From Takakia lepidozioides (Eukaryota; Plantae; Bryophyta), in the NCBI GenBank assembly GCA_030704615.1, contig CM060731.1, positions 6,324,001 through 6,388,000 of the forward strand: 64,000 nucleotides of DNA, read 5' to 3'. Below, one piece after another: positions 30,459 through 61,058 of this stretch. Below the pieces are notes generated by a model. That model saw nothing but the letters and a program-made list of their open reading frames with translations, searched no databases and was not told where the DNA came from. How positions within the stretch are numbered: position 1 is the first letter of the stretch; every line of letters starts with the position of its first letter. The translations under genes were made by a program, and so were the position numbers.

Positions 30459-31509
30459 ACACTTATACGGGATCTGTAGGGTACCCTTAATTTTTGCACA
30501 GACTGAGACCAACAGGAGCCTTAGGGGTGACAGCAGCGCACTGTAGAAGGGGGTTACACAGCCAACACAGCCGTTACAGTCGTCACAGCCAACACAGCCA
30601 ACACAGTCGTCACAGCCGACACAGCCAACACAGCCGTTACAGTCGTCACAGCCCACACAGCCAGCACAGCCGTCACAGTCGTCACAGCCGACACAGCCAA
30701 CACAGCCGTTACAGTCGTCACAGCCGACACAGCCAACATAGCCATCACAGTCGTCACAGCAGACACAGCCGACACAGCCCGACACAGCCACACAGCCAGT
30801 CATAGCCCGACACAGCCAAACACAGTCGCACAGTCAGTCATAGCCCGTCACAGTTTCACACAGCCAGTCACAGCTTGACACAGCTGTCACGATCATAGGG
30901 AACGAAGAGTAGGACAGGGAACGACTGTGGGGAACAACACCTGCGAAGGGAACATGTTAGTTCACAGACGACGGTTAGTAAGGTAAACGGTTAGAACCGC
31001 AGATAGGAAGATAAAGGGAGAAACGGGGAATTGAGGGACATCATTCGGAGGAGGACTTCTTGGTGATAGAGAAGAGGGGATCGGGCAAAGATGAAGAACG
31101 GAAGTGAAGATAGAGAGATGATGAGTAGATGCTTGATATATGCAAGGCTGTAATGATATTGTAGAGTAGATTAGAGACACAATGGCTTCGGCCTGATACC
31201 TGATAAATCATAATCGGATACTTTTACGATCACACTGTGTAGAGAGGTCTGAGTGAAGCTGTGGAATGAATGGATGAGTTGATGGAATCCAATAGATTGA
31301 TAAAGCAAACTGATACTTAATTATCAATGGTAAGATAGTTAACATGAATACCAAAAGGGAAACAAATACGAAACACCCCCATGATACACTAGCTGTAGGT
31401 CATGACTGATTGTTCTGCGCGGGCTGAGTACTTAGAGATTTCCAACTCTTCAATCTTGGAGTTTCCGCCTCGAATAGCGAAGGGATGGGTGAGTAAAAGC
31501 CGCGCGACA
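30459..31509 (+). mobile_element. Solo-type LTR of the family at 60081-61019 (inverted relative to it, lacking the first ~25 bp)
   Basis: It is colinear with the reverse complement of 60081-60994, from acacttatacgggatc to gccgcgcgaca. Homology stops exactly at the terminal CA. Confidence 0.85.
30556..30885 (+). repeat. ACAGCC-based tandem array (9-bp subunits, about 36-bp higher-order unit) inside the LTR
   Basis: acacagcca/acacagccg/ttacagtcg/tcacagccg subunits are repeated over about 330 bp. Confidence 0.95.
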
Positions 31510-33900
31510 AGTGTGTGGTCTCTTCCTGCCATCAAACCATCCAATACCAGTCAAGATCCCTAGCTAGTAGAAATCAAGATTTAACATCAGCTCTGATACC
31601 AAAAGAAGGGGCGTGAATCCCCTTCTGTGCAAGTCTAGTTGTGCTCCTCCCCAGGTCAATTGGAGGGAAGGAAAGGAGCTCTCCTCTCAGTGATCCAACC
31701 ATCGTCACTCGGTGTGGGTTTCCCTCAGGTCCTTCATGATCAGAGTTCACACAATCCTCATCCACGCCGCAGCGGAAGAGAAGACATGGATGGGGAGTCT
31801 GTATTGTTTTCACCCGTGGTTCTACTTCTACACGACATCCTCTCCCTGGTACACTGCACCAGCCATGTTACCATGCTGTCTTCAGTGATGCAACCAGCCC
31901 TACGTCAGTGATGACCACTGCCCTTGTGGGCAGCTCCCTTGGTCAGCAACACGTGGAAGCCCCTTTGTAATAAGATCACGATTTAGAAGGAGGCAACTCA
32001 GATCTGCCATGAGTTGCAGGCCCACCAGTTTGGCCCTTCATGGGTTCATGCTTTCTTTATCTTACCGCCCCAATCATCCATTCCTCTCCATCCCCTCTTG
32101 CTGGTCAGCTCTCTCCCTTATGTCCTTTTCTCTCTCCCTCTCTCTTTCTTTCAGGGTGAGTAGGTTCCTCACTCTTTCCACTGTAGCATGTCTATGATGC
32201 AATGCAATGCGCATTCAGCCAAGCATCCAGTGCACCCAGCATTGAAATCAACCTTGGTCACACAAGATATAATCAGCCCTTTTATCAGTCCCTCTCTTGC
32301 CAATGACAGATGCTTCACACTCCACTTTTCCCAGGTGTAGCCATTTGCCCAAGACAGCTCTCAACCCTTCTACAGGTCTCAATTTACACACCCTGACAAC
32401 TCTCTTTTTCCCATCAACTGTGAACCTCAATGGTTCACATGCTGAGAGCACCCTGAGAATCAGATCCAAACCCAAACAGATGTTGGTTTTTCTGCCCCAT
32501 CCACATCATCCCTTCTTGTTGTTTCCAAACAGTTCTATCTAACTCTCACTGGTTTCCTCTACCTACTAAGCTAGTTCCACATTGACTGCAATGTGTCAAC
32601 ATCCCTGGCTAGATTGTTTGTACAAGCTCATGATGCTGAAACAAAGAACAAGAATACAACAGCAGCAACCATTCTGTCCCAGCAACGAATCAACCCTGTT
32701 TCCATTCATTTTTCCTACTGTACAATGTAACAGCAGGTGCATCCATCTCCAGTCCATCCTGGTTTGAAGTCCAGTGTCTTCATTCCATTTCCAAAGCTCT
32801 TTTTCTTCCTCACATGTCAGTGTCTCTTACTACATACAAGAGACAGTCCAAACTTCACAAAGCGATTTCTAAGTCACCAAAAAAGGGGGGCCACTCTTCA
32901 AACGTATCTGTCTTATACTCATTGAAGCGGTGGGTCTGCCTGTCAAGAAGGCACCTTGTCCTCTCCCTCGTCAGCCATTTCCGACATTTCTTCTTATCGT
33001 GATTCCAGTCCTCATTAAGGCATGACGGCTCTGCTTCAGCTGCTGGCACATCCTTGTGCCTGCCAACCTCTACCCTATCCTTCTACATGTGCATTTCTTC
33101 CCTATGAAATGATCTGGTCCTATAGCCCTTAAGACAGAGAGCAGATACAAAACTTAATTATAGATAGCTTAAGCGCCATACACACCAGAAGGCGGCACCG
33201 CTTCCTCTTGCACAGAATGCCAAGCCAGATCCCTTAACGTCGCTCTTTAAGGCAAGCTGATTCCCTTTGCGCAGGTGGAACTTCCTAAGATATGTTGTAC
33301 TGCCAACACCACTGCAGCAGCTGCGAAAAGATGCTTACATTCTTCCCTTACAAAGTGATCTGGTCCTAAAGCTCAAAAACAGACAGCAGCTACAAGATTT
33401 GATCACAGACAACCTGAGGCGCTATACACACCAGCCTGCATTTCTCATCCCCCAACACCTGCTGAGCCGCTCCATCTCCTCATTAATGTGCTCATCAAGA
33501 CAATGGCGACAGCAGTGGTGCACCGCCCTTATCACAAACCTGATCCCTCAGGTTTGATCATTGCTTACAAAGAAGGCGGCACCGCTTCTTCTTGCACAGA
33601 AAGCCAAGCAGGAGCTCTTAACGTTTCTCTTAAAAGCAAGCTCATACCCTTTGCGTAGGTGGAACTTTCTCAGATATCCTGTGCTGCCAACACCACTGCA
33701 GCAGCTGCGAAAAGATACACGCACTCTTCCCCTTCGAATTTCACATCCTGCTTCTAGGGTTCAACATCATGGATGAAAATCATTCATCCTAGGGATGAAA
33801 AAGGTGTATGTCATAACTTAGCCATATTTTGTTCTTGGCAGATCAATAGCATAGTCTTTCCATGGAATTACCTCAAGTTATGGACAATTCCTCCCCTTCA
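31510..33900 (-). mobile_element. Putative 5' part of another LTR retrotransposon: LTR-like region, tRNA-Met PBS and first codons of gag
   Basis: TGGTATCAGAGC lies on - at 31590-31601, followed by ATGGCAGGAAGA (MAGR) cut by the LTR insertion. A GAAGGGG/CCCCTTC hairpin is adjacent. Degenerate repeats of about 245 bp lie at 33090-33735, and a PPT-like GAAGGGGAGGAA followed by TGT lies on - at about 33885-33899. LTR ends are not clean. Confidence 0.5.
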
Positions 33901-33997
33901 TTAGCACGAAGGGCACTCCCTTTGTAGTAGTGCCGAAACCTGATGCCAAACAAAAACTTGAATTTTTACCCCCTGCATTCATTTTTACGAGTAAATT

Positions 33998-34840
33998 TTG
34001 GAGGGCACTTTGGAAGAAGATGGGGACAAGAAGATGAGCACCGCCTTCCGACCTACGACCGACGGCCAAACAGAAAGAGTGAATTCCATAGTGAAGCAGA
34101 TCTTGCGGAATTACGTGTCGGCAGACCAAACAGACTGGGTGGAACATTTAGACGCGGCAGAGTTCTGTTATAATAACACAGAACACTCCGCAACGGGAGT
34201 TTCCCCTTTCGTATTGGTCTATGGAAAAGCACCTCTGGTGCCGACAAGTTGGGCCGCCCAGGACATTGAGGAACCGGCAGTAGCGGCGGTACTGGAAGAA
34301 CGCGAGCGTTTGTTGAAGCTCGCAAAGTACAACATTGTCAAAGCTAGGAAACAGTATGAAAGGCAGGCGAATCGGAAGCGGAGGGAAGTGAAGTTTGAGG
34401 CAGGCACGGAGGTCTGGTTGAACATCAAGAATTTCCGACTACCTCCGGAAGTGAGTCCAAAGTTTGTACCTCCGTATGCGGGACCCTTTCGCATCCGGAA
34501 GGTTATGAATGAGGATGTGTATGAATTGGAGCTGCCGGCAAACAGCAAGGTGCATCCAGTATTCCACGTCTCCATTTTGAAGCCTTACTTCAAAGATGAA
34601 GCACGTCCGAATCGGCATCAAGTGTTGCGTCCGCCACCTGTGCTGTTGGATCATGAAAATGAACCTGAGTACGAGGTGGAGGCAGTACTTAAGTCGAGGA
34701 GGTTCAAGAATCGAGAAACGGAGTATCTCGTCAAATGGAAGGGCTATCATCTTGTGGAGGCATCTTGGGTGCGTGCCTCAGAAATGGGAAACGTATCCGA
34801 GGCGGTTGCAGTTTTCGAAGGGCGACCTCAAAAGCGGTAG
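33998..34840 (+). mobile_element. Chromovirus (Tcn1/Tf2-like Ty3/Gypsy) integrase C-terminus with SH3 and chromodomain
   Basis: STAFRPTTDGQTERVN, AEFCYNN, TGVSPF, GPF.I, HPVFHVSILKP (GPY/F), EYEVEAVL....ETEYLVKWKGY....SW. A PPT AGGGGAGGAAA follows at 34873-34883. Confidence 0.93.
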
Positions 34841-34883
34841 AAGCGTTGATGGGGACATCAACCTTGGAGCGTAGGGGAGGAAA

Positions 34884-35595
34884 TGCATGCTTAGCCCGGC
34901 TTAGCTAGCTTAGGAATCCGATTGCAAAAACTTGTATTGTACAAAAATTTGTCAGAAAGGAAATGGGTTCCAAATGTTGTGCGTCATATTTTGTTTGGAA
35001 TGGTGATGAATGGTGTGGTTGGCTAATGTGTAGAATGCATGCTAGCTTACAAAAATGGGAGAGGTAAATTGGGTTAATCGTGTGTTTGCGTAGTGCCAAA
35101 ATCAGGTGACTCCCATCCAAGGGGCAAGGAAACTTGCGCCTTCTTTAGGAGTTCACGTGCTAGTGCGCACCTGGCGCGTGCGCATACTATAACTGCGCTA
35201 CCGAGGGGGTTGCTTTGTAGTGCGGGCTAACGCGGAAGCTACGTGCTTCCGTTCATGTACTATAATCGTGTAGCCTCGGGACAAAGTCGTAGTGTGGCTT
35301 CGGCGTGTTCCCGTACCTCAGGCCAGCATTCCAAGGCGGACCCAATTGTAGTGATTGGGGCGCGCGGTTGGTTCAAGGTTATCTTCCTAGTCAAAGAGGG
35401 TTCGAGGTGAACCCTTGCTCAAGGTGATGCCAAAAGCAGCATCATGAGCGGTCGCAAGCAATGTTGTTGCAGTAAGGCGATTCGATCCTCGGGGAGGATC
35501 GTTCCTTGGCCTTGAAATAGGCCAAGAAGAGTGCACTGGGAGGAGTTTGAGAGGCTCCACCCTTGACCGAGACTTGGAGGAAGTCGGTCAAACTA
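34884..35595 (+). mobile_element. 3' LTR of the chromovirus fragment, with a dense hairpin array
   Basis: It begins with TG immediately after the PPT. At least 8 adjacent inverted repeats lie in 35160-35591. Confidence 0.65.
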
Positions 35596-35599
35596 GCTA

Positions 35600-36376
35600 G
35601 TGGAGAGTAGAGTCAAGTGTGGGGTTTGGTTCTTTGCCATGGGACGCCATGCTACGGAAACAAACTCCTTGATGTGGGACGCCACAACTTGGATGTTCGT
35701 TTCCACAAAATGGACAAGCCGATGAGGACATCGACTCCGTGTTGGTAGGGGTGTGTGTCACGGCCCTTTGCCTTGAGGGCAGGGGGTCGGGACACAAGAG
35801 GGGCTGCCCCTGTGGTGGGGGCAGTGGCAGCGATAGGTATGGGGGGCTGAAGCACCCTTGACTGCCCAAGGCACTCAAGGAGGCGGAGGCGCTCACTAGG
35901 TGGAGCCCCGCACACCGGGTTGCGGTGGGGGTGGCTCCACAAGGGGTGGTGGTAGCTTAGCGGGACTGAGTGGGGGTGACATAGGACTCACCCTGGGGCG
36001 GAGACCTCGTGGTGGGAGTCGTGGGGAGTCTTGGGACTCATCACGGTCCATAAGGGCCGTGGTGGGTGGGCCAAGACTCACCGCGACTCATCACCGGGAG
36101 TCGAGGGTGTTCGTGGTGGTTCGCCATACAATGACATGGTTGTTTGTGAAACCCCCGCGGACAGCTACAGAAGTATATATAGGGAGTAGTAACCCCGAGA
36201 ACGGTGCAAACCCATTGGTGACCAAAAACTAGTGAGTAAACGAGCGAGCCGGAAAGCGACCAAAGAGTGGGGAGCTGTTCTGGACTGCCAACTACCAAAG
36301 GGAATTCCGCTGGTTCCAAATCGTTGGAGGGTTCTTTGGGAGATCAAAGGGGGACCGTTATGCCCCGGTGAGCACA
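35600..36376 (+). mobile_element. Putative unrelated LTR fragment truncating the methyltransferase domain
   Basis: GC-rich non-coding segment with a TATA box (gtatatataggg, about 36173). It ends in ...GAGCACA where methyltransferase homology stops. Confidence 0.4.
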
Positions 36377-37109
36377 CACTGGCCATCATCCTGGTCCAAG
36401 AATCGCCCATCAGTGGCACATTCTCCAAGATGTATGCTGGAGATACAGCTTGATGAAGCTGCAAGTGGCGCAAAACCCGCACCATCTCCCAAAACAGACC
36501 CGACCTCGAGTCTCGCAATCCATTGTCATGCCCGGCTGATGAATGCCCTTGGCAGGGCCAACCTGCCACTACCAGATCAATGGAGCCAACCCGGTCTAAA
36601 TCTTGTGCCCTCAGCAACGAGATGTCTGCTGGCAAGGCCTGCTGATATCCACGAACTCCAGCCACCGGCAACAACTCAGGGTACTGTTGCACCAACTGAG
36701 CAACATGGCGTAGGGAGACGCGTCGTGCAGTCTCATCCCTCTCCACATACAAGTAACGCCGTACTCGTACACCTGCCTGTAGAACAACAGCCAATCCGGT
36801 GCTGATCCCGCCAAACAAGTCCATAAGGCAAATGCCTTCATCCAGACACTGCCACACGATCAGTGTGGTGTCCAATGGTGACAACTGAGGTGGTCCTGGT
36901 GCAATCCCCGCACTGTCCTCCTCTCCTGACGGTACCAAAGCCTCTACCCAGGCTTGTTGCACCCGTCGATCAGCAACCCTCTGCAAATCCTTGCTCGTGC
37001 CCCACAATGGAGTCTGAGCAACCATGGCAGGCAACTTCGCCATATCATACATGTCATCCGTTTCTCCTGGAGGTATGTCATCCTCTGAATGAACATTTCC
37101 CTTAAGCAA
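36377..37109 (-). CDS. DNMT3-like C5 cytosine methyltransferase domain within a Gypsy polyprotein, 3'-truncated
   Basis: Motif I LMDLFGGISTG, motif II YLYVERD, motif III ADIS, motif IV IDLVVAGWPCQGHS, the GL.D.RSGLFWEMVRVL segment, and motif VI YILENVP. Motifs VIII-X are absent. Confidence 0.92.
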
Positions 37110-39777
37110 CTCTCCAGGCCAAAGTCACTGCAACTGTGAATGCTGCTAGTGTCGGCATCTTGCCCCGCTGGGCAACCGCAACTCCTCCTATAAACGTCAC
37201 AGGGAGCTGCACACGCCGGCCCTCCCCTGACTGCCATTCAGGCCTATAGGAAGCTGACTCCTCCCAAAAATCCAGGGTGAAGCCCATAGGGTACAACATT
37301 GCCCCACCAACCATGACATCGTACGAGACCGCGTCTGTCACAATGGCCTTGGCTCGCATCACTGAGCCATCTGTAGGGTGATCCGGCCATAGTCTGATAG
37401 CCAACTCACGCCGTGTCATGCCCCAAGCCTGCTCCGATCCTCCCAGAGACGTCTGTATCTGGAAAGGACAAGGCTCCATATCCGCCTCCGTGAGGCCCAA
37501 GCCTGCAATAGCAGCTCTGCCCATCATCAATGGCTGAGCTCCCGAGTCCAACAAGACCTGCAGTGGCCGGTACCTCTTGCCTGCCGGTCCACTCAAACAG
37601 AAAATGTCATCCTAGTTGTCTAACATGACAACTCCAAGTGTAACCATGGCGCGCTCAATGGCTGGCCTAGCTGGCAGCTCTATCAACCTAGCAGCTGCAA
37701 CTTGCCATGGCGCCGTTGTGGCAGTCTTGACCCTCAAATCCGAGGATCCCTCGGGCACTACACCTCCCACTATCTCCGCAAAAGATGAAGTAACCTCCCC
37801 ACTCTCACAGAGTGTAGCTGCCAGCCTGAACACCTCAGCTGGTCTTACCCTCGACGTCGCAATCATGGCAGCCAAGAACAATGGAGCCTGGCACACCGAT
37901 GTGGTCGCTCCTAGCAGCACACTAGCTGTCGTAGCTCTGGCAACACTAGGTAGTGGTGCTACCCGTGTAACTCTCCCCAATGGCATAGTAACCTCCGCCT
38001 CGGTAACAGTCGGGCGAGAACTAGGTGCCATGGATGGCGTCGACATTGTCTCCGCCAATGTGAATGACTGAGGAAGCCTAGCCTGACGGCTTGCCTCCCC
38101 ACGCTGTGGATCCAACTCTACCTCTGCACCTTGTGGCTCAGGAACTCGTGCTGCTCCTCGAGTCACGGCTGCAGTAGACTCCACCTGCACTAGTGGTAGT
38201 GCTGCTCCGCACATGAATCCCATGCCTCCCATATCTCATCCCTCAGGAGCAGGAGGTGGACCATCCGGCCTTGGAGCCGGTACCACCTGAGCTGTAGCCA
38301 TGGCAGCGAGCCTCTGCTTTAGATGCTGAAGCCGGTTGGCCATGCCTTGGTCAACACCCTGACCTCCGCGTCCTTGGCCATGTTGAGCTTGCCCTTGGCC
38401 TGCACCCCGTGCCTGGCCACCTCGTCCTTTTTGGGCTGCTCCCCCTCGCCCCCAGCCACCATTGTTCCCTTGGAACTGGCCTGGGCGCAACTCGGGATAC
38501 AAACCATAACACTGGGCCTCTCCATGTCCGTGCTTGCCACAATGCCCACACTGTGCAGGCTGTGCATGCCGGCCCTTTGCCTCCCTCTGGGCAATCCTTC
38601 TTGACATGGGGTCCTCCACATGTCCAGCACACCACATCCGCCCGTTGTTGGCTAGCAAATGAAGAGAGAGACCCCTGCATCTGAGGTCCTCTCTGCCCTT
38701 CCCTGAGCTTCACTTGAGCCCCCTTGTTGCCTTGAGCACATTGAGGTAGCCACTACCCCGTGGTGTCTCCTTAGCAAATCCCACCATGACCACTGGTTCC
38801 TCCTCCATGTTGAGCTCTATCCGCTCTGCCAGCAAAAACACATTTGCTAAGGTGGGTTGGGCCGCTTGTAAGAGAGTTGCATCCCGCACCCTTCTCCTCA
38901 GCTCCTTGTCCAATATCCCATACCAGAATTGGACTGCCTGAGCTTCCGTAACCCTTTGGGTTATATTTATCAAGCGCCTCACGTGAGTGAAAGCCTCCCT
39001 CAAGCTCTCGGTCGGCTTCCATTGGAACTCTTGCAAGCTCCGCAACTTCTCTGTCCTCACCCCTTGGTAGTTCCCTCTCAACTCTTCGAAGAACTCCACA
39101 ACATGATTGAAGGTAGGCACGGGTACTGGTGCTGGTGCGGTAGTGGCTTGGGTGGACGTCATAGCTACGTTACCACCAGTCCTACTAGTCCCACTGCTGC
39201 TTGCTGAAGCTGCAGGTGCAGCGGCAGGTGTAGCCACTGCCCTCGTGACTCTAGTGCCCCTAGTGATGGAGACATAGTCGGGTGACCAGTACATCCTCCA
39301 CTCCTCGATCTCAACCTCATGCCCCCACCTGAACTCATGGTAATCATCCATAGGCGGCCCCTCAAGGTGCTGAAACAGCCCCTTCCATGCCATGAAAGGC
39401 GTAAATAGTTGTGGATTGCGCATTTGCTGCAAATCACACCAACTATCAAACTCTTGGATAAAATTATCAAACTCTTAGATAAAATCATCCAACTCGATGG
39501 TGCCCACCGCCCCAGAGTACCTTCGTGGCCCCTTGGTAGCTCCATACATCTCCTCTATTGTGTCCCACAACAATGGCAAGGAAACAACTTGCACCGCCGG
39601 TATGAGTCCTCCTGATTCACAATCCGAATCAGAACCTTCCGTAGAAGACACAGGAGCTGAAGGTGGCCTAAATTGCACACCTCGTCTCGTGTACCCACTA
39701 GTATCGCTAGTGCTCGAACCGACACTGTCCCCAGCAACTAGTGGCACCTCCGTGTTCATACTCAACCGGTCATGAAC
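37102..39777 (-). mobile_element. Ty3/Gypsy gag, zinc knuckles and aspartic protease of the methyltransferase-bearing element (decayed)
   Basis: gag (ELDDFIQEFDSWCD, LFQHLEG, LQEFQWKPTESLRE, FWYGILDKELR); knuckles CWTCGGPHVKKDC and CGHCGKHGHGEAQC; protease VLLDSGAQP...YDVMVGG. There is a 21-bp duplication with a stop at about 39475 and several frameshifts. Confidence 0.88.
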
Positions 39778-39820
39778 ATGTCCCTAACCCCCTCTCCACA
39801 AGGTAACCGGGTAGGGAACC

Positions 39821-41106
39821 TGTTGCGGCTTATGGTTTGGAATACTAAGTTCCTAACATAGCCTACACCTGTACCTGCATCCACCGCAAACACAGGAGAA
39901 ACAATGATGGTCTGGTTGGTCATCACCCCAGCCTCACCATCGACAGCATGCTCTAGGACTGGCCGGTGATCAAATCCGGACCAATCACCTATAAAAACAA
40001 GCGCCCACACAAAACTAGCATGGCGTACAGTCAAACATGCAGATATGGAGGGGATCCAAACACAAGAAATCAGAACGACAACTCCCCCACACCAATAACA
40101 ACTCCACGGTGTTGCTCCTGCAAGGACACCCCAGCCCAAACCCGGACTGACTCTTGCCTCCACCTACGGAAAGGTCTTGGCCTAATGAGAGGGTGGAAAC
40201 TACGAGGAAGAGAAGCTAAAGCAATGCCTAACCCCAGCATGCCCTCATCCCAACACTCTTCCTCTCCTCTCTTCCCTCACTTGCATGACCATGGGAATAT
40301 CATGAAGATACTCCTCAAACCGCCCTCCACGAGCTTCAAAATTTGGCCTTCAAGACCACATGCCAGTCCTTAAGTAGTCCACCAGTGCCTCCACGAGTCA
40401 GCAGAGGCCATCCACAGGTCAACACGGGCCACCACAGACCAGCACAGGCCCACACAGCTCACTGGTCACAGCCGTCACAGCCCCACACAGGCCACAGGGC
40501 ATAGCCCACCACAGCCTGTCACAGGCCATCACAGCCCCACAGGCCACAGGGCACAGCCCGCCACAGCCCATCACAGCCCATCACAACACGTCACAGCCCC
40601 ACAGGCCACAGGGCACAGCCTGTCACATCCCGTCACATCCCCTCATAGCCCGTCACAGCCCCACAGGCCACAGGGCATAGCCTGTCACAGCCCGCCACAG
40701 CCCATCACAGCTCGCCACAGCCTGTCACAGCCCCACAGGCCACAGGGCATAGCCTGTCACAGCTCGTCACAGCCCCATAGGCCATTGGGCACATCCTGTC
40801 ACAGCCCCTCACAGCCCCACAGGCCACATGGCACAGCCTGTCACAGCCCTACACAGGTCACAGGGGTCACAGCCCCAAAGGCCACAGCCCCTCATAGGCC
40901 ACATGGCACAGCTTGTCACAGCCCGCCACAGCCTGTCACAACCCCTCATAGCCCGTCACAGCCCCACAGGCCATAGGGCACAGCCCCTCACAGCCCCTCA
41001 CAGCCCCACAGGCCATTGGGCACAGCCTGTCACAGCCCGTTACAGCTCGCCACAACCTGTCACAGCCCCTCATAGCCCGTCACAGCCCCACAGGCCACTC
41101 ATGACA
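39821..41106 (-). mobile_element. Putative 5' LTR of the methyltransferase-bearing Gypsy element
   Basis: The minus strand starts TGTCAT at 41106, exactly at the array edge. A possible end ...GCAACA at 39821 lies just upstream of gag. There is no second LTR copy to confirm. Confidence 0.45.
40420..41100 (+). repeat. CACAGCC-based tandem array (gtcacagccccacaggccacagggcacagcc units)
   Basis: About 680 bp of 8-11 bp subunits in a variable higher-order repeat, with CG>TG/CA variants among units. Confidence 0.95.
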
Positions 41107-42795
41107 GTTTAGCCATTTCTCCAAGGGGTTTAGCCACTCCAAGCTAGGGTTTGTGTCTCTTGGACTCTAGGCTTCTTTGCACCGAGCATGGCGGCTGTGA
41201 AGAAATCAGCAAGGTATTCTTGCTCTTTTGGCTCCCACACACCACCAATAGTAGCCCTAAGCCATGAGGAAGATGGTTGCTACAAACCAAGCATTCTTTC
41301 TCACTTAGACTCCCCAAACACGCCACTAAACTCAATGGCAAACAACCAAGCCTTGCTGGTTTCCAGCCCTTGTGAGCACTCATTCAAGCGTTTCCTTTGG
41401 CCATAGCATCTGTCTTAGAGCCTATTCCAGCCCCCTACACCTGCCACTTCAAGAGCCATGCTCTATCTAGGCTTGAGGTTGAAACCCCAACTCAGAACAC
41501 GCTTTACAAGTGTTGGACTGTCACATAAGAGCAGATCAGCCCCTTATCTTCTCTTCTAGTTCTCTAAAGCTTGAAAACAAAGCCCAATGGACTGAAGGCA
41601 TGCTCCACACATGCCCCACTCTCACCACTAGAGAATCAGCCCCTTGCACCCATCAACCTGAAAATACACGCTTCAGCGGGCTGGAAGCATGCTCCACACA
41701 TGCCCTACAGGGAAACCAGCCCCTTTCTTCCTTTCTTGCTTGCCCTCCAAGCTTGAAGATGGAAGCTTCAATGAGCTGAATACATGCTCCACACATGCAA
41801 CCTCTTCACACAAGAGGTATCAGCCCCCTATCTTGGCTCTTTAGTTCCTTGATGCTCTCTAAGACAAGACTAAGCACTCCACAGCCCTTGCCAAGCTCCT
41901 AAAACCCTAAGGCTTACATTTCCAGCCACAAGACACTCCTCTTGTGGTGCAAGAGCTCTTCTTCCAAGCTCTGAAACCCTAGGTGCACATTCCATGGCCT
42001 TGCCGCACCTCTTAGCTCCTGTTCTAGCCTTGCTCTTGCCATGACAAGAGCCCTCTCAATGCTGAAGCTCGAGTTGAAACCCAATCTCAACATACTCCAC
42101 AAAGTGCACTGATTTGCCCCAAGCCAAATCAGCCCTTTCGCTTGGTCTTGCAATCATTCACACAATGAAAGCTCGCATTGCCAAGTCCAATTCTCAGCTT
42201 TGCCACCAAAGCCACTATAACCTGCTTTTGACTGGTTCTCTTCCCAATCGTGCTTGCTCATGCATGTACACAATTTGAAACCATCAAGGTGCTCTGGAAT
42301 TACCTACAGCATGGTGCTTTCATCTCTGAAGCTGAAGATCGAATGCCAAGGTCTACCACCTCGTAACCCACATCGCCTCCGCTTCTAACAACCAAGAGCT
42401 CCACGGTGCTCCTTGCATAATAACCTGGTTTCTCTCATTCTCAAGCAAAAACCACAAGTGCTACAACTAACTCGTATCTGGCACTCACAGAGACGAGCTG
42501 ATCTTTCTCGAGTGATAAAGAAGAAGAATACAAGCACAAGCTCATGCGAGCTCATAAAGCTGAAGCATAAACTCATGCATATATAACCTCATCACTCAAA
42601 TACAAGTCAAGTCAAGTGCACCCCACGCCATGGGGAATCCACACTACGGCGCCATAACTAGGCGCGGTGAGGTTCAACTCGAGAAAGATGAGCCTCCCGC
42701 GCTTGCCGTGAAGATAACCACTCCAGGGCCTAAATCTGCCTTGACCCCTGGATTGACACTTGGGCCAATCCCAAATGTCAATATGTAAAAGCTAG
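41107..42795 (+). mobile_element. Putative LTR with ~90-bp U3 repeats, TATA box and downstream hairpins
   Basis: catgctccacacatg...cagcccct units at about 41590, 41685 and 41780, with related units at about 41480 and 42070. tatataa lies at about 42580, and nested inverted repeats at 42648-42782. Confidence 0.5.
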
Positions 42796-42849
42796 CTATT
42801 TCCTAGCTAATTTCACACTAGTGGTAAAATAACTTGACAAGTGCTTCGA

Positions 42850-44330
42850 CAAATTTTCATCAATGTATTCACGTAATGCAGCCAACTCCGTCTGGGATAA
42901 GTTATAGATTGGGCCGAATGGTGGTTGGGCTTTTTCTTGTAACTCAATTGCACAGTCATAAGGTCGATGTTCTGACAATATGTCTGCATTTTTCTTCTCG
43001 AAGACATCTTTGAAATCTTGATATTGAGCGGGTAATGTTGAAGTACCTTTGTCTGTTGTGGTCTTGATCGGAGTCGCATAAAGTGCAAATGTCGCCTCCT
43101 TTTTTGTAGCTTTCATGAAAGCTCTAGCTCCAAGGAATATGGGTTGAATACTTTTGATATTTCTACATTTTTGTCTTGCAAAATTTTTTCGCGATCGTCA
43201 GTCGATGTCGGGATTGTGAAGTACGAACCAGGGAAGTCCAAGGATCACAGGATTCGTTGGAGACTGGATGACATTGAAAACAATATGTAATGCTTGATCT
43301 TTAAGCTTCACTTCAAGTGGTCGAGTTTCATGGTCCACATTTCTTGATGATAATGGTCGTCTATCGATGACTTCAACAGGGGCCGAGAGTTTCTTCTTTA
43401 CGAGCGTTAAATTGTTTTGCTTCGCAAAGTTTTTGTCCATAAAACAAGCTGAAGCTCATGAGTCCAAAAGTGCTTCTACAGTGATATCTCGATTTTGCAC
43501 TCTGATTTTTACCGGAACTGTGAAGCAAGGTGCAGGATCTGGAGGTAGAAAGAGACATTTTTTCGATAAGGAATTTGTGGTGTCCAGCCGCATGATCCCT
43601 ACTGTGACTGGACATCTTCGTTTTCCGACCTCCTCGTATTGAACACTTGAGTTGTGCCCCGAGCTTTGAATCTTCTCTTGTTGGGGCAGTTTAATGCTAT
43701 GTGATCTTCTTCTATGCAATAGAGGCATAATCCATTCGAGCGCAGTCTTTGTTTTTCTTGTGGCGTCAATGGCTTGAATCAGACAGCATCAATCTGCATA
43801 GAAGCACTACTGGATGTCTGATGAATCGTTGTATTTGGTGTCATAGTAACAATGACATGATGCGTCGTAGACCATCCAGATCGCTTCTCTTGACGTCTTT
43901 CGAACAAACGATTATCGCATGCAATGACTTGGGTGATGAATTCACTCAGTGTGCTCACGTTTGGCATTGTCAGCAATAAATCTTTTACATCATCTTTTAG
44001 TCTACATCGAAACTGACTAATGAGGCTCTTCTCATTCCAGTCGAGGTCGCACGTAAGTTGTCGAAATTCGGCAGCATAAACGGAAGCAGGACGTGCTCCT
44101 TGTCGAAGATTTTGCATCTTTGTTTCTGCAACTCTCTCTCTATCATTTTCTCCAAACGTTGCAGTGAACTCGGACATGAACGCTTCAAAATTGTATGGGT
44201 CAAAGCATGCTACGGTCCACCCAAAATGGACGTCCCAAGCTCTCTGCGAATGCAGTGCCACATAGAAGGACTGACATGGATGTTGGATATAAGTGCATTT
44301 TGAAAGTTTAGACATGAATCATTGATCTTT
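42850..44330 (-). mobile_element. Tcn1/Tf2-like Gypsy gag, protease and start of RT (decayed)
   Basis: LRQGARPASVYAAEFRQL..DLDWNE..L..QFR..LKDDVKD.L (gag); ALLDS*ASACFMD and ILGLPWF..HNPDID (protease); HRPYDCAIEL....PPFGPIYNLS..EL..LREYIDENL (RT N-terminus). Confidence 0.9.
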
Positions 44331-45898: not shown

Positions 45899-46155
45899 GT
45901 ATTCAGCTGAGGTGAGGCCAGGGCGCTTTGGGATAATAATTACACTGTACAAGCAGCAGCTATTACTGCTTCAGAATCGCTTTATTCGTGCACTAGGTTC
46001 TGGTGCAGCATGTGACATTGAGTTCAATACTGTGGATGGGTTTCAAGGACGTGAAGTCGACATTCTGATTTTGTCCACAGTTGGACGACAAGGGCGAGAG
46101 AATAATAGGAATGGTGAAGTAAATCGTGGAAGCATTGGGTTTGTGGCTGATTACA
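45899..46155 (+). pseudogene. Fragment of a SEN1/senataxin/UPF1-type superfamily-1 helicase (AAA_12 region)
   Basis: GIIITLYKQQL...DIEFNTVDGFQGREVDILILSTV...SIGFVAD, preceded by the splice-acceptor-like ttttaccag. Confidence 0.8.
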
Positions 46156-46405
46156 TAACAAGTAAAGGTGGGGGCTCTCCCATTTGTTGTCATATTCATT
46201 GCAGATTTTCCTACTTGGTGTAAATTGGTGCAACAGAACCGAGAGTGTTGATATTCTTCTCACATTTGCTTTGGGTTGTTTTGCAGGCCATGTTTTCATA
46301 CAACTGAATTGGACTGGGACAACCATTGGGAGAGAGAGTACACTTAAGCAAACTGTTGTCTGGTTTCCGATCTCTATATTGTGCTAACAGTTGTATCAGT
46401 TTTCA

Positions 46406-54600: not shown

Positions 54601-55200
54601 TTGTTTCAGTCCTTCTTTGCCTCTACCTGGGGTTTTGCGTAGCCTGTCTTTCAATTCACAAACTCCTAGCTTTGGCTTACTGTCTGTGCTGCCAGGGTCA
54701 TTTGCTTCTCGATGCTCCTTCATTCTTTCTTGTTGCTTAGCTGTCCATGCCGCATATGCTGCCCAATTGAGTTTTTGTCCAGTCCTTTTTTCATAGACAA
54801 TGCCCCTTGCCATCAAGTTTGCAATGATACCACCGGTTGGCTTACAATCATACCCATGAACCTTACTCCATAGGTCCTCGATTTTGGGAATCATACTCTT
54901 GTCAGTACAACCCATGTAAAAGTAGCCATTCTTGTTTGCAGGTTGTCCAAACAACTTTGCACATTGTTCTTTGGTGATGTCTTTGTCTAAGAGAAGTTGT
55001 TTGGGATTCTTGCCTGTCGCATTCAGCTTGAGGACATCCCTGAAGTAATCTGCTGATTTGTGCCCCCCTCTTTCGCCCATAGTATCTTCAGATGCTGCAT
55101 TGGAACTCTTCCCATTCGTAGGTGAATTCTGTAACTTACTCCCCAACTGCACCATTGTTTTGAACCACTTCTTGAGTGCCCTACATACTCCCAGCCCCAC
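51607..55200 (-). CDS. Transposon accessory gene (frameshifted): PMD-like domain, coiled coil, RING-H2-like finger, disordered tail with NLS
   Basis: 54301-55200: LFG...KNGY.Y..C......IEDLW..VH...MARGIV.E..GQKLNWAAYA plus heptads. After a frameshift near 54330: CPVC-x13-CKHTYHPAC-x10-C-x4-C. Donor CCAG|gtaag at 53662/53661. Pro/Ser-rich ORFs 52257-52931 and 51607-52338 end in PKKKKRKH. The gene is convergent with the transposase. Confidence 0.65.
53000..53600 (+). repeat. GGACTCA(c/t)ACTCC motif array (~30-bp spacing) in the accessory-gene intron
   Basis: More than a dozen ggact(c/a) cores, e.g. ggactcacactccacatga, recur between about 53005 and 53480. Confidence 0.88.
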
Positions 55201-55986
55201 ATTCCCATTAAACTAGTTTTTTACAACTCCAGGTTGGTTATGTACGGAGACAGCAACATGAGGGGGCAAGGATGGAGCTACAAACCAACACCCTACCGAC
55301 ATTTCCAGCTTCATGAGAACCAACAACCAACAAAACAACAAACCAACAAACCTAAACCCTACTGACATTTCCAGCTTCATGACAACCATACTACCTAATT
55401 CTGACATGAAATTACCTTTTCAATCAGAGGCCAAGTCTGGATCGTCTATGGTTAACGCAAGTTACCCCTTCAAGAAGTGCAAGTGATCCACATAGATGAC
55501 AAACCTGCTTTCCACACACGTTTTCAAATTCTATATTCCCCCACATGGTGAAGTTTCAGAGAATCAACATTCACATATTGATGATATGCATTGCCATATT
55601 CCTCTTCGATCCCAACGAATGATTGACAGAAGGGACAAGTTCCTTCAATCTAGCGTCATGGTTCAGTTTAGGTAATTAGGTACGCAAGGATGAGCTGGGT
55701 TGTCACGTGCTACAACAACAAGAGACTACTCTACCCCTCTACCCCACATAGGCTATGAGGTACGCAATAAAAGTGAAAATATGAGTAGGGAACACCAGAT
55801 TGCACAAAAGCTAAGGGGGTGCCACACCTGTAATGCTTTTGCAAGATGTGGTGGGAGGTAGCGTGAGGGAGAGCCGCAGGCCACCTGCCATCCCGCAAAT
55901 CAGCTGCACAAACAGCTGAAACTTGTTGAATAGTAGCCCCACAAATGTGACAACATATGCAGGCAAGCAGATGGAATCAGAGGATA

Positions 55987-58900
55987 GTGAGCACCTTCTT
56001 GACGTTGAGAGTTTCGTGGCGGACTGTGTGTACGAGCCCGAGGTCTGTCTCTGGTTGACGGAGATGGTTGATCACTACCTGGATAAGTGAGGCCCTCTGG
56101 AGGCTGATATGGAGGTAACCTTTCCGGCATAGGAGACCCCCTTCGCTTCTTCTCTGCCATCTGAACTGCATAGTCTTCTCCCATGTCAAAAGAATTCGGT
56201 GAAGAAACAGTTGTATCAGAATCCTCATCGCCTCTCAGGTGTTTTAATTTTCGAACTTTTTGTGGAATCATCTGGGGCATACAATGCTGTCCTACCATGT
56301 CTGGAAGTTTGTATTTTACAACTTGGTGTAACCGCTGAACAGCAAAATTGGTGTAGACATTGAGCTCCTTGTCTGTCCAGGTGAGTGGGGTACCAATTAC
56401 TGGTGCAGCGTGCAAGTACTTCCATGCCACATGTCCCTTATAGAAAATGTCATCAATGCCGAATTTGTGTGTTGACAAATGGTTCCAGGCCGCTTGAAAC
56501 ATGAACGAATTTGAGAATCCTTTTGCATCATAACTTTTGGGTCATATAGGTACATATGAGGTGGTACCGAAGGTATACCCCATGACCTCCACTGGAATAA
56601 CTCAGAAAGCGTGTTTGCATCTTTTGTTGCTCAATGTGGTAACGTACCAGAAAACAAGCAGCGTAGTATAACCCGCACCCCATGACAATACTTGCTATCT
56701 CCTTGGTCTTGGTATAAATGAGTCCATGTACAACCTGGAAAGCAATCAATTCCCTCAACATGGTACCTGCCTCGTGCCAGTATTGTGCAAAGTGATGATC
56801 TTCAATATGTCGATTGTTCGGAAGAACTTTAGTCCTAGTTGCCACTGGCAGCCATATACGCATGATTTGGTAGTAATGTGCGAATGACTGCGGAGGACTA
56901 AATTCTTTCCAAGCCAAATCCAACATGATGGGAATTTGGTTGAAGGGCATAATCATAGCCCTACTGTACTCCCTGGCAGCTGGAGTTTTAGGTGGGTTAA
57001 AAGCGGCATTGCCCCATACCTCCGGCTGTGGTGGTTGTGGTGTGGTTGTAGTAACCACAGGTTTAGCTATTGGTACAGTGACTTGTTGTGGTGGTGGTGG
57101 TACTGGCTCCTGTATCATTGGCATCTCCTGCACCTCCTGTGAAGATTGAAAAGCCAAAGTTCTGGCTTGTAAATAAGAAGCCATTAGCTGTTCCTGAGGG
57201 ATATAGACTCTTTGGTCGATGTTTGAAGTGAGGTCTTCTATTTGAGTCTGGAGTCCATCTACATCCTCTTGTAACTCTGCTATCCTACTATAGACATTGT
57301 CTATAGTAGTTGTGGCAATGTTCTGCACCTGCAGCCTGAGCTCATTCATCTCGCTTTTCCGTGGTGTTTTGCCCTCTACTGGCCCTTGTGCTAACCAGAC
57401 CTGCATAAGGCTGTTATCCACCAAGTTGCTTGTGGTTCCCCTGAGAGTTTGCTCCTCTCTTAGCTTGTACAATTCCAACTGCTGTTGTAAAGCCTCCATG
57501 CGCTTCGCCTGAGGTTCAACCAATTGCGCATAAGCAGCAAGTAGATTATTGGCTTCCTTCCAAGCCTTGTTATTGACCGCGATTTCATTTCTATTGGCCA
57601 TGATGGTTTGTTGCAACTCCACGATGTGCTTCTCTTGATCAGCTTCAATCTGCCTGTATTGCTTGAAAGTATCTTCATTGCGACAGATTGTATTCTTCAT
57701 ATCGACAATGAGCTTCATTTGCTCAACATTCTCTTCTTCTGCCTTCGTACATTTTTCCGCTTGACTGTTTATTTCTTTTGTAGATTGGTCAAGCATAGTT
57801 GTAAATGTAGCACATTGTATTGTCATCCTGTTATGCACTGTCTGCAACTCCGTATGTAGTGCATTCAGTTCTTGCAACTTGCTTTCATGCTGCACCTGCA
57901 TTTGGTATAGCTGTTGCTTATGTGCTTCGTGCAACTGGTCTTGCGCGAGGCCTGCCTCAATCAATTGTTCCTTGGCCAATTTCAAAGCCATTTCTGTATT
58001 TCCCAAGTCCTGCTTCAACTTGAGAGTGACCTCTTCATCGACCTTGTTTGCACACTCAGTGGCTAGTCGAGCCTCAAACTCCTTCCTGAGTTCCTCTCTC
58101 AAGGCTGTCAATTGGGTAATTGGAACATGGGATTTGACATAAGTCCCCAACAAATTAAGTGTCCTGCCTATGGAACTCATCAGCATTGCCTGTTGAGGGT
58201 CATCATGGTGAGGTTGCTGTTCTTCCTCCTGATCTTCAACAGTGTGATGTCTCACGAACCATTCAGGCCATTGTCCCACCGGATTTTTCTTCCTGAACTA
58301 CTTCATCTATCACCGGTGCTACAGTGTCATGACCTTCCGCCTGTGGTACCTCCGACACAGGTGCGTGTATTATTTGCACCTCAGGATTTCCCTTGGGCAA
58401 CTATTGCACCTCTGGGATCTCTGTTTCCTTGACCAGACCAGAATATTCATAGAGAAGGTCCCCCTTCTCCATTTCTGCCACTATCTGTTCTGTAGTTGGA
58501 ATATCTAACCATTCTTTTTCCAAATCAATTATTTCTGGTTGAGCTGCATGGATAACTCGTGACCTTGTGACAAGTCGATCAGCTGGCTGTGGTGGTTGTG
58601 ATACAGAAGTAACTTCCTCCTCCCTCTCTGAAGGTCCTGCTTCCAGTAATAGCATTTCTCTGTGCTGTTGTGCCCCTTCCTGACCATGAGCTTGGGAAAC
58701 ATTATCATGCGGAGTCCGTGAAGCCAGTGGATCCGCCACTACAGTCTTTCCCCGTCTCTGCCTCTTAGTCTCGGGTTGCCCTGCTAGTCCACCCTCACTG
58801 TGTGAAGAGCCTTGCTCTTCCATTGCAGTTGTTTCTGGCTCAAACACTCCCATTTCCTTCCTTTCTTGTGCATCAAGTATGCCAGAATCAAGGATTATTT

Positions 58901-59495
58901 GAGCAATGATTGGGCCAGACACTATGATAGGAGACTTTGCGGTAGTACCTTGTAATCTTTTCATCTCCTCTACCAGCGCGTTGTACATTATGTCCGCCCA
59001 TTGTACCTCTTGTCCCTTCAGGCCTTTAAGTATTTCCTCCGTGAAGGATCTGCTCAAATACTGTTGGTTCTGTTTCATGGCAATCAGAACGTTCAATACC
59101 TGGCCTACCTCTTTTAACCCTGGGTACACAGCCTTGGTACAAGCATAACCCTGAGTTTTAAAGAAACTCCCTTCTTGGAATAAGTCCCCTATTTGCAGTC
59201 TTGCCCTGTTTTCTCCACATGCACCTGACCTGCTGGCAATCGAAACAATTGCTGGAGGTATAGGGAGTAATCATTAATTCTACTCCCTTCACCGTTGTTG
59301 TTCCTGTCCTTGGCTCAAAGTTCTGCAAAATTGTAACATGTACTGTCTATGGTGTAGTGTCCAATCTAGGCTTTGCAATCCTTGCAATCTCAGCTCCTCC
59401 AGTATCTGTATCGCCTGTGGGGTAGCAATTGTTTGTTTCTGCAGAATCATGGTGCTCTTCACCCTGATTTCCTCCATGCCTCTCACTCTCTTCAT
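55987..59495 (-). pseudogene. Copy A of a long single ORF (PMD/Transposase_32-like N-domain, acidic linker with NLS, coiled coil, Pro-rich linker, helical C-domain) of a gag/pol-less LTR element
   Basis: Joining frames gives MKRVRG..LEELRLQGL..LDW....YMLQF.QNFEPRTGTTTVKGVELMITP..LQQLFRLP...FKTQGY...KGQEVQWADIMYNAL...GPIIAQI, continuing through ORFs 58401-59129, 56528-58279 and 55900-56502. Confidence 0.75.
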
Positions 59496-60080
59496 TTAGA
59501 CTCACCGAACTGTTTTGGCTGTAACAACTGTAGGAATGCCTGTAGTGCACAAAGCATAAACGTATGGTTGCCGCAGAAAGCTATGGGTAATTTCTTGTAA
59601 GCCTGCGGGGCTTACAAGCATCGCTCAAGAGAAAAGCTCCGCTCTGTCTTTTCGTGTCTATGCCACTGCGTAAGTAATATTGCGAGCGTACAGTCTGTTA
59701 GTTCCTCCATAGTTTCCAAGGTATAGCATTGATGGTCTGTCCTGTCGAGACGCCCGTTACTCAGAACGACGCCGCCTCTTGCGCTCAATTTCCCTCCATT
59801 TTCTTGTTCCTTTCTCTGGTTTTCTATTGGCTGTATCCGCTGTGACTGGATTTTAGATTTTATCTTCTTTAGTGGACTTTCCCTGTTGGATAGTCCACTA
59901 GGATCACACATGTGACAAGAATTCCGCTTTTCTGTACTTGCCGTCTGTTCCGTTTCCCTTTTTCCGTACTCATTAATGGGCCCGCCTTTCATCCCTTTTG
60001 ACGGCCGTTCTTGTCCTCTTTCTTTTTGACACCTGTTCTTGCACTTCCTTCTTGGCTGTGTGTCGCGCCCTGACCTCCAC

Positions 60081-61019
60081 TGTCGCGCGGCTTTTACTCA
60101 CCCATCCCTTCGCTATACGAGGCGGAAACTCCAAGATAGAAGAGTTGGAAATCTCTAAGTACTCAGCCCGCGCAGAACAATCAGTCATGACCTACAGCTA
60201 GTGTATCATGGGGGTGTTTCCTATTTGTTTCCTTTTCCGCATTCATCTTAGCTACCTTACCATTGATAATTAAGTATCAGTTTGCTTCATCAATTTATCG
60301 GTTTCCTTAACTCCTCCATTCAATCCACAGCTTCACTCAGATCTCTCTACACAGTGTGATTGTATCGTATAAGTATCAGATTATGATTTATCAGGTATCA
60401 GGCCGAAGCCATTATGTCTCTATTCTTCTTTCCTATATCACTATAGCTTTGCATATAACAAGCATCTACTAATCCTCTTTTCTCCTTCATCGTGCTCTCC
60501 GATCTCCGCTCCCGCCTGACTCCGAAGTCCTCCCCGAATAATGATCCCCCTCTCCATTCCCCGTTTTCCCTTTTTCCTCCTCCTATCCGCGGTTCTAACC
60601 GTTTCCCTCTCTAACCGTCGTATGTGAACTAACATGTTCCCTTCACAGGTGTTGTTCCCCACAGTCGTTCCCTGTCCTACTCTTCGTTCCCTATTATCGT
60701 GACAGCTGTGTCAAGCGGTGACTGGCTGTGTTTGGCTGTGTCGGGCTGTGACTGGCTGTGTGGCTGTGCCGGGCTGTGACTGGCTGTGTGGGCTGTGTGG
60801 GCTGTGACGACTGTGACGGGCTGTGTGGGCTGTGACGACTGTGACGGCTGTGTTGGCTGTGTGGGCTGTGACTGCTGTGTCGGCTGTGTGGGCTATGTAA
60901 CCCCCCTCTACAGTGCGCTGCTGTCACCCCTAAGGTTCCTGTTTGTCTCAGTCTGTGCAAAATTAAGGGTACCCTACAGATCCCGTATAAGTGTCTAAGT
61001 CCCCTACAGTCCTCTAACA
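60081..61019 (-). mobile_element. LTR (~939 bp, TGT...ACA) shared between two tandem units
   Basis: On - the PPT GAGGGAGGAAGGGG-taaa (61037-61020) directly precedes TGTTAG. The end ...GCGCGACA is defined by the 30459-31509 copy and is followed by gTGGAGGTCAGG (PBS position; tRNA unidentified). It contains an ACAGCC array at about 60700-60900. Confidence 0.85.
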
Positions 61020-61058
61020 TTTACCCCTTCCTCCCTCAAAAAGCCGTGTCCTCACGGT

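What the first reader, a model, noticed from the sequence alone, without database searches (positions are those of the whole stretch)
30556..60900. The same (GTC)ACAGCC motif is amplified in the LTR regions of two otherwise unrelated retroelements
Seen: arrays at 30556-30885 and 60700-60900 (PMD-ORF family LTR) and at 40420-41100 (methyltransferase element) share GTCACAGCC/CACAGCC subunits. They differ in higher-order unit, flanks and orientation relative to element sense. The motif is dense in CG and CHG (CAG, CCG) sites, and units show CG>TG/CA variants. Inference: convergent amplification of a protein-binding site, either for a host factor or for the PMD-like protein. This raises the possibility of a helper/satellite pair in which one element supplies gag-pol-DNMT and the other the motif-binding protein.
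Basis: partly seen in the sequence, partly recalled or inferred. Interest (0 to 1): 0.72.

Follow-up and report, generated by a model that had tools for sequence, protein, structure and literature searches.

The report
Shared repeat in two unrelated retrotransposons
Two unrelated plant jumping genes each carry a run of short tandem repeats built on the same seven letters (CACAGCC), but the repeats sit in different parts of the two elements, which also differ in their ends, so they likely grew separately and the proposed helper-and-passenger partnership is not supported.

Summary
The arrays and their shared CACAGCC core are real, but there are two independent arrays, not three. 30556-30890 and 60695-60898 lie in two copies of one LTR (92-97% identical outside the array). 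40405-41100 is not in an LTR: it lies in the 5' leader of a truncated Gypsy element with a DNMT3-like methyltransferase (KnitGypsy-Dnmt3 type; relatives read A-gag-PR-DNMT-RT-RH-INT-PHD-B-A-B). Public contigs cover array and both flanks deeply, so it likely belongs to that family; 0 of 28 related elements with a full leader carry it. The flanks of the two arrays share nothing; the longest shared word is 16 bases; simulated chance per array pair is 0.1-0.9%, suggestive but not decisive after selection among windows. The middle array is CpG-poor, not CG-dense; all are CHG-rich. The 'PMD' ORF matches no PMD model; its relatives are Transposase_32/Athila-ORF1-like. Termini, priming signals and orientation differ, so helper/satellite is not supported. 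Best reading: separately expanded internal arrays with no shared function (0.55); a shared host-factor site remains open (0.25). The scan had already found moss Gypsy-DNMT3 elements on other DNA.

The parts
30459..31509 (+). LTR copy 1 of the extra-ORF family, 5'-truncated by about 26 bases, no primer site behind it in this copy (solo or partial LTR) beside a PPR gene
   Evidence: blastn to 60994-60081; contigs run on before 30459 into the LTR start seen at 61019 and behind 31509 into a PBS-like sequence
30556..30890 (+). Array A1 in U3: 35 units, a 9-bp zone (CACAGCCRW, CACAGTCGT) then a 10-bp zone; about 250 bases upstream of a TATA-like word
33984..36376 (+). 3' part of a chromovirus (integrase end, SH3, chromodomain, PPT, probable 1.5-kb LTR) that cuts off the DNMT element inside the methyltransferase
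   Evidence: Pfam SH3_Tf2-1 2.9e-14, Chromo 2.2e-10; loose ends at 33984 and 36375; LTR extent inferred from sequence
36376..37124 (-). N-terminal part of a DNMT3-like C5 cytosine methyltransferase (motifs up to ENV), truncated
   Evidence: PF00145 6.5e-13; 48 homologs; closest homolog P0002 hits DNMT3A at 6e-12 ahead of DRM2 and bacterial enzymes
37105..37611 (-). Aspartic protease
   Evidence: Asp_protease_2 E 0.005; matched in 65 of 80 related loci
37615..39783 (-). gag-like region and linker, broken by stops
   Evidence: matched in related loci, gagB in 47 of 80; relative P0054 has weak Retrotrans_gag plus DNA_methylase
39784..42512 (-). 5' leader of the Gypsy-DNMT3 element (repeat A end to the gagB landmark: 3038 bases against 1121-2285, median 1220, in 28 relatives)
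   Evidence: continuous deep contig cover
40405..41100 (+). Array A2: about 66 units, 10-bp CACAGCCYGT-type units interleaved with a CACAGCCC-CACAGGC-CACAGGG block; reads GGCTGTG on the element's sense strand; fades gradually at the low end
42513..42839 (-). 5' terminal repeat A of the Gypsy-DNMT3 element (327 bases, starts TGTCA, holds a TATA-like word, ends at a TCA/CTC junction like relatives)
   Evidence: interrupts an RT frame at 42839; depth rises at 42482-42883 and drops beyond; junction compared; assignment inferred, no second copy in the window
42840..44318 (-). Separate Gypsy gag-protease-RT start into which the DNMT element inserted
   Evidence: Retrotrans_gag 6.9e-10
55986..59270 (-). 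Extra ORF, copy 2 (frameshifted, 3'-truncated): Transposase_32/Athila-ORF1-like N-terminal domain plus long coiled coil
   Evidence: 95% identical to copy 1; homologs P0049, P0050; P0049 matches PF20167 at 3.5e-8, below its cut-off; atlas leads under 0.9
60081..61019 (-). LTR copy 2 (939 bases, TGTTAG...CGACA), between two ORF copies
60695..60898 (-). Array A3 in U3: 19 units, same two-zone layout as A1, shorter
61024..61037 (-). Polypurine tract in front of the LTR
61088..64000 (-). Extra ORF, copy 1 (longest frame 61418-63577, 719 aa), runs off the window
   Evidence: no homolog for this coiled-coil part

Best explanation
Two unrelated retrotransposon families each carry an internal tandem array with a CACAGCC core, one in the U3 of an ordinary LTR and one in the 5' leader of a Gypsy element with a DNMT3-like methyltransferase, and each array likely grew on its own by slippage and unequal strand transfer during replication, with no shared function. 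Shown: positions, unit structure, length difference between two copies of one LTR (35 against 19 units), absence of flank homology, absence of the array in related DNMT elements. Inferred: the leader array was gained in this host's lineage; both arrays are CHG-methylated (CAG/CTG-type C>T variants); the common core is either coincidence or a short seed copied once from one element to the other, which these data cannot separate; each element is mobilised by its own family's machinery.
For: A1 and A3 differ in unit number while their flanks are 92-97% identical. No similarity between the non-array parts of the LTR and the leader (best E 0.2). Longest word shared by A1 and A2 is 16 bases, and no 21- or 24-mer matches with fewer than 2 mismatches. 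A2 has a block absent from A1, and fades into its flank. 0 of 28 related elements with repeat A and a full leader hold an ACAGCC array, and 35 of 41 long-enough loci carry RT, 22 of 29 integrase, so this kind of element does not need the array. Internal tandem arrays that vary in sequence are common in non-chromovirus Gypsy elements (PMC6317226, PMC7004042; passages read). Shuffled 7-mers form triplet arrays in viral contigs as often as CACAGCC (84 against 109 and at least 121), so such arrays arise freely.
Against: A1-A2 is the only one of 36 array pairs in the window that shares a recurrent word of 7 or more bases (a 10-mer; next best 6). Simulated chance for one pair is 0.1-0.25% for a recurrent 10-mer and 0.7-0.9% for a dominant 7-mer (0.9-1.1% and 0.06% for bare units), and the periods (9-10) also agree. 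The 10-bp zone of A1/A3 has units like those of A2. Both arrays lie in regulatory positions near a TATA-like word. The 28 relatives come from 8 metagenome data sets and look like one family, so they are far fewer than 28 independent cases. No listed contig spans A2, so its linkage to gag in other copies rests on continuous cover.
Confidence: 0.55

Rival explanations
1. Both families convergently amplified a binding site for one host transcription factor, using the array as an orientation-independent enhancer (U3 in one, leader in the other).
For: Low per-pair chance; invariant CACAG core at about one helical turn spacing (9-10 bases); the G-rich strand holds TGACG (8, 4, 7 times) and TGACAG (1, 1, 10 times) words, which I recall as bZIP/TGA and TALE-homeodomain half-sites (recalled, not tested). 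Precedent: E2F and other sites amplified by transposons (PMC5950925, PMC7329337; passages read).
Against: No binding or expression data; TGAC words are in a minority of units; array absent from 28 related DNMT leaders; A2 lies about 1.5 kb downstream of the TATA-like word; variants look like methylation decay.
Confidence: 0.25
2. The extra-ORF protein is a VANC-like, sequence-specific anti-silencing factor that binds the array in its own LTR, and the DNMT element acquired the same motif to borrow that protection.
For: VANC targets are short motifs in tandem repeats in non-coding parts of the element (PMC5735166; abstract and section 9 read); PMD-C domains are reported as structurally similar to the VANC domain and act at DNA motifs (10.1101/2024.09.27.615353; passages read). 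The ORF has an Athila-ORF1/Transposase_32-like domain; the leader array is a lineage-specific gain.
Against: No PMD or DUF1985 match, no solved relative, two fold predictions failed (mean pLDDT 41 and 46). A2 is CpG-depleted like its leader (o/e 0.23 against 0.26), which does not suggest protection from methylation. Related VANCs are reported to target different motifs, not to share them.
Confidence: 0.1
3. Helper/satellite pair for replication: the DNMT element supplies gag-pol to the gag-pol-less ORF element, which supplies the motif-binding protein; the opposite orientation would let the two RNAs pair through the arrays.
For: The window's LTR-ORF-PPT unit (5.1 kb) has no gag-pol, so it needs some helper. 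The arrays are complementary at RNA level: predicted duplex -478 kcal/mol against -336 for shuffles, which merely follows from the shared core.
Against: Different repeat architecture and termini, no shared word above 10 bases between repeat A and the LTR; most public contigs continue behind this LTR into a TGG-led PBS-like sequence (65 contigs in X1, 39 in X2), pointing to a conventional parent of its own, whereas no TGG follows repeat A in the window or in relatives.
Confidence: 0.04
4. The arrays are a generic dispersed minisatellite inserted independently of either family.
For: Contigs show further array variants, including units that mix A1-like and A2-like words (loose ends at 40598; joint 40702 to 30862 at low depth). 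No genome was held to count arrays elsewhere.
Against: A1 and A3 sit at the same place in two LTR copies; cover runs deep and unbroken across both edges of A2 with no dominant loose end there; no other cluster in 64 kb.
Confidence: 0.06

Closest known systems
KnitGypsy-Dnmt3 of Klebsormidium nitens (PMC5890265; passages read), called streptophyte Gypsy-DNMT3 in 10.64898/2026.05.21.726589 (passages read)
   Same: DNMT3-like domain inside a Gypsy polyprotein; DIRS-like repeat layout (A-coding-B-A-B in 7 of the related loci).
   Different: Land-plant host; this copy is cut inside the methyltransferase; leader about 1.8 kb longer than in relatives and holding the CACAGCC array; relatives end pol with a PHD finger (18 of 24 long loci), a term not found in the main text of PMC5890265 (figures and supplements not seen).
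OTA (Athila/Tat/Ogre/Retand) Gypsy elements with extra ORFs and internal tandem arrays (PMC6317226, PMC7004042; passages read)
   Same: About 1-kb TG...CA LTR, PPT, TGG-led primer site, extra ORF related to Transposase_32/Athila ORF1, variable tandem array.
   Different: Array is in U3, not the 3' UTR; no gag-pol seen for this family in the window, so lineage cannot be assigned.
Transposon-amplified host factor sites (E2F and others in MITEs; PMC5950925, PMC7329337; passages read)
   Same: A short word multiplied inside transposons of more than one family.
   Different: No factor is known or shown to bind CACAGCC here; these are retroelements.
VANC anti-silencing systems of VANDAL transposons (PMC5735166; abstract and section 9 read)
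   Same: Short motif in a length-variable tandem array in non-coding DNA of an element that encodes an accessory protein.
   Different: Retroelement, no DUF1985/PMD match, no binding or demethylation data; VANC targets are family-specific.

Membership tests
Gypsy-DNMT3 (KnitGypsy-Dnmt3 type) | C5 methyltransferase closest to DNMT3, unrearranged | tested here: met
   PF00145; homolog P0002 best hits DNMT3A/3B ahead of DRM2
Gypsy-DNMT3 (KnitGypsy-Dnmt3 type) | DNMT within a Gypsy polyprotein with RT, RNase H and integrase | tested here: inconclusive
   Met in relatives with the same gag-PR-DNMT (35 of 41 RT, 22 of 29 INT); the window copy is truncated before RT
Gypsy-DNMT3 (KnitGypsy-Dnmt3 type) | DIRS-like split repeats A-coding-B-A-B | tested here: inconclusive
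   Seen in 7 related loci; in the window only a 5' A-like repeat is present, supported by junction and depth
Gypsy-DNMT3 (KnitGypsy-Dnmt3 type) | Monophyly with the Klebsormidium elements in RT/DNMT trees | not tested
   No Klebsormidium sequence was retrieved
PMD (PF10536) extra ORF | Match to the plant mobile domain model | tested here: not met
   No hit at E<=0.1 for window frames nor at E<=1 for homologs P0049, P0050
PMD (PF10536) extra ORF | PMD/VANC-like fold | tested here: inconclusive
   Models too poor to search
OTA non-chromovirus Gypsy | LTR with TG...CA ends, PPT and TGG-led primer site | tested here: met
   the priming tRNA was not identified
OTA non-chromovirus Gypsy | RT/RH/INT phylogeny | not testable with these tools
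   No pol linked to this LTR in the window; no genome held
Helper/non-autonomous retroelement pair | Shared termini and priming signals between partners | tested here: not met
VANC-type anti-silencing module | Element protein binds the motif and lowers methylation | not testable with these tools
   Needs binding and methylome data
Troyka | CG...CG termini, 3-bp TSD, animal hosts | tested here: not met
   Termini here begin TG; PMC12440569 parts 1-3 of 5 read

The most novel reading that the evidence does not exclude
A methyltransferase-carrying retrotransposon has pirated the target motif of a sequence-specific anti-silencing protein encoded by an unrelated retrotransposon family, amplifying it in its leader so that one element's accessory protein keeps both active.
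Probability: 0.1. Interest if true: 0.82.

Novelty: new member of a known kind. Interest (0 to 1): 0.36.

Why it matters
As it stands, it is an example of element-internal arrays plus a further land-plant copy of a known methyltransferase retrotransposon, with one odd coincidence. If one protein binds both arrays, it would name a cis-element exploited by unrelated retroelements in a seed-free plant and would give a function to an Athila-ORF1-like accessory protein, whose role is still speculative (PMC6317226); cross-family borrowing of anti-silencing would go beyond the family-specific VANC systems.

Tried and rejected
No genome is held for this window, so arrays could not be mapped genome-wide. 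No RNA holder was listed for 36000-42200; this says nothing on expression. DNMT search in viral contigs: nothing. Homolog searches with the 719-aa and 289-aa ORF frames in the word-indexed collection: nothing. PDB sequence search with the ORF alignment: only coiled-coil noise. Two fold predictions gave mean pLDDT 41 and 46 and were not searched. G-quadruplex convergence: A1/A3 never reach a G4Hunter-type score of 1.2 and A2 does in 11% of windows with one canonical motif: rejected as common cause. siRNA cross-targeting: no 21- or 24-mer with fewer than 2 mismatches: weak. CACAGCC as a generally array-prone word: not above shuffled words in viral contigs, and none of those 84 loci resembles the window; this control is not from plants. 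Troyka, recalled as having split repeats: wrong. The PBS-like word seen behind the LTR in contigs does not occur in the window. Earlier-findings look-ups by place and by the A2 and DNMT sequences gave nothing relevant.
Full report
Setting. The window is eukaryotic, 46% G+C, a nest of transposons among a few host genes. The nearest named relatives of its methyltransferase come from the liverworts Calypogeia and Marchantia and those of its extra ORF from the lycophytes Selaginella and Diphasiastrum, so a seed-free land plant is inferred. No genome is held; evidence on other copies comes from public contigs laid on the window and from 80 related loci.

The observation. All three arrays are present. 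ACAGCC occurs 116 times against 37.5 expected, and it clusters only in these arrays. Cut at the CACAG core, A1 (30556-30890) has 35 units, 24 of 9 bases then a zone of 10-base units; A3 (60695-60898, minus) has 19 units in the same layout; A2 (40405-41100) has about 66 units, mostly 10 bases, interleaved with a CACAGCCC-CACAGGC-CACAGGG block that A1 lacks. CGTCACAGCC recurs 5, 2 and 6 times in A1, A3 and A2. The longest word shared by A1 and A2 is 16 bases. All are CHG-rich (11-15 per 100 bases against 4.25), but only A1 and A3 are CG-rich; A2 has CpG o/e 0.23. Of 17 one-base departures from CACAG in A2, 10 are C>T or G>A at the CAG/CTG site, as expected from CHG methylation, which is strong on moss transposons (PMC6453930, passages read); single changes multiplied with the units would look the same.

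Family 1. A1 and A3 lie in two copies of one LTR: 93 of 96 bases agree before the array and 549 of 599 after it. The whole copy runs 61019 to 60081, begins TGTTAG behind a polypurine tract and ends CGACA; the array starts about 120 bases in and ends some 250 bases before a TATA-like word, that is in U3. Public contigs extend the truncated copy at 30459 into the same LTR start, and behind 31509 most continue into a TGG-led PBS-like sequence (65 contigs in X1, 39 in X2, 2 in X5; agreement 0.62-1.0). In the window the LTR sits between two 95%-identical copies of a long ORF with no gag or pol. This ORF has no PMD match. Its N-terminal part finds two lycophyte proteins (E 1e-6 and 5e-4 among 1.8 billion), one of which matches Transposase_32 at 3.5e-8, below the curated cut-off; the atlas gives the same families as leads under 0.9. 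A long coiled coil follows. Extra ORFs of this sort and internal tandem arrays are typical of Athila/Tat-type elements (PMC6317226, PMC7004042; passages read). Folding failed twice, so a PMD-like fold is neither shown nor excluded.

Family 2. On the minus strand, gag-like frames, a protease and a C5 methyltransferase run from 39783 to 36376, where a chromovirus fragment cuts the element. A close homolog hits DNMT3A best among solved structures. The 80 best of 126 related metagenome loci keep the order gag-linker-PR-DNMT; 35 of 41 long-enough loci continue with RT, 22 of 29 with integrase and 18 of 24 with a PHD finger; 7 show the 3' end B-A-B with a copy of A at the 5' end. That is the layout described for KnitGypsy-Dnmt3 (PMC5890265, passages read). 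Three paper searches listed no paper on such elements in land plants, a 2026 preprint speaks of streptophyte Gypsy-DNMT3, and this scan has already reported moss copies on other DNA. In the window the element begins at 42839, where TGTCA interrupts another element's RT; a 327-base repeat ends at a TCA/CTC junction like that of the relatives, and contig depth rises over it. A2 therefore lies in the leader, 1.4 kb inside the repeat and about 0.6 kb before gag, not in an LTR.

Is A2 part of the family? In X1 summed depth stays at 146,000-978,000 over every bin from 39400 to 42883 against 1,400-3,200 on unique DNA; in X5 long contigs on both sides of the array have depth 141-186 against 8-9. No dominant loose end marks either edge; those listed inside it are array variants. 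Depth is not a copy number and no listed contig spans the array, so linkage is likely, not shown. In the relatives, 0 of 28 loci with repeat A and a whole leader hold such an array (at most one ACAGCC), and their leaders are about 1.8 kb shorter; these loci come from 8 data sets and look like one family, so they count as few independent cases. The array is thus not a conserved need of this element type.

Is the shared core more than chance? A1-A2 is the only one of 36 array pairs in the window sharing a recurrent word of 7 or more bases. Random 9- and 10-base units share a 7-mer about 1% and a 9-mer 0.06% of the time; simulated decayed arrays share a recurrent 10-mer in 7 and 15 of 6000 pairs and a dominant 7-mer in 56 and 40 of 6000. 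With tens of pairs per window and a reader choosing striking cases from many windows, chance stays plausible; I put chance and relationship near even. Outside the arrays the two elements share nothing, so a capture, as an earlier unchecked note reports for another moss pair, would have to be a short seed. CACAGCC is not unusually array-prone in viral DNA.

Mechanism. The most likely account (0.55) is separate growth of each array by slippage and unequal strand transfer, from coincident or once-copied seeds, under host CHG methylation, with each family moved by its own machinery. A shared host-factor site (0.25) has precedent in transposon-amplified E2F sites (PMC5950925, PMC7329337; passages read) and fits the near-helical spacing, but nothing here tests it. 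A VANC-like role for the extra ORF with borrowing by the DNMT element (0.10) is the boldest reading left; against it are the missing domain match and the CpG depletion of A2. Replicative helper/satellite (0.04) fails on termini, priming and architecture, although the opposite orientation does make the two RNAs complementary. A free dispersed minisatellite (0.06) fits neither LTR copy.

Verdict. Observation partly confirmed, interpretation partly supported; a new member of known kinds, interest 0.36. Figures and supplements of the cited papers were not seen and could bear on the PHD finger and on host range.

Noticed in passing
L031:14460-14623 and other related loci: The integrase of the related Gypsy-DNMT3 elements ends in a PHD finger (PF00628, 2.7e-8; 18 of 24 long-enough loci), where chromoviruses have a chromodomain.
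   Followed up: partly
window 53441-55212 (-): A second ORF that aligns loosely with the same Transposase_32-like domain, overlapping a frame with a weak RING finger match (E 0.002).
   Followed up: partly
window 55986-64000 (-): Tandem ORF-PPT-LTR-ORF layout with a 5.1-kb unit and no gag-pol; the sequence after this LTR begins with a different TGG word from that of most public contigs and repeats the LTR's last 7 bases.
   Followed up: partly
window 47673-48013: GACTAG-based array (periods 6, 53, 62, 124) between two long ORFs without Pfam match (46388-47221, 47968-50016) that look like a DNA transposon; shares only the 6-mer GTCACA with A1 and A2.
   Followed up: no
window 23431-27403 (-): Four ORFs of 194-323 aa with no clear Pfam match, probably another transposon.
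   Followed up: no
window 4-1265 and 28800-30450: Two PPR-like repeat genes (period about 300 bases, 64% alike); the second abuts the LTR at 30459.
   Followed up: no
window 12492-19369 (-): Exons of a host gene resembling a site-1-protease-type subtilase (label recalled, not from a call).
   Followed up: no
window 31590-31601 (-): A methionine-type primer site word (label recalled) just beyond the first LTR, marking another nested element.
   Followed up: no
L007:5322-5680: A 7-bp TGGCTAT array of 52 copies just outside a related DNMT element; resembles the CATAGCC variant only loosely.
   Followed up: no
window 8924-10300 (+): Gypsy gag (Retrotrans_gag 4.6e-12) not linked here to the array-bearing LTR.
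   Followed up: partly
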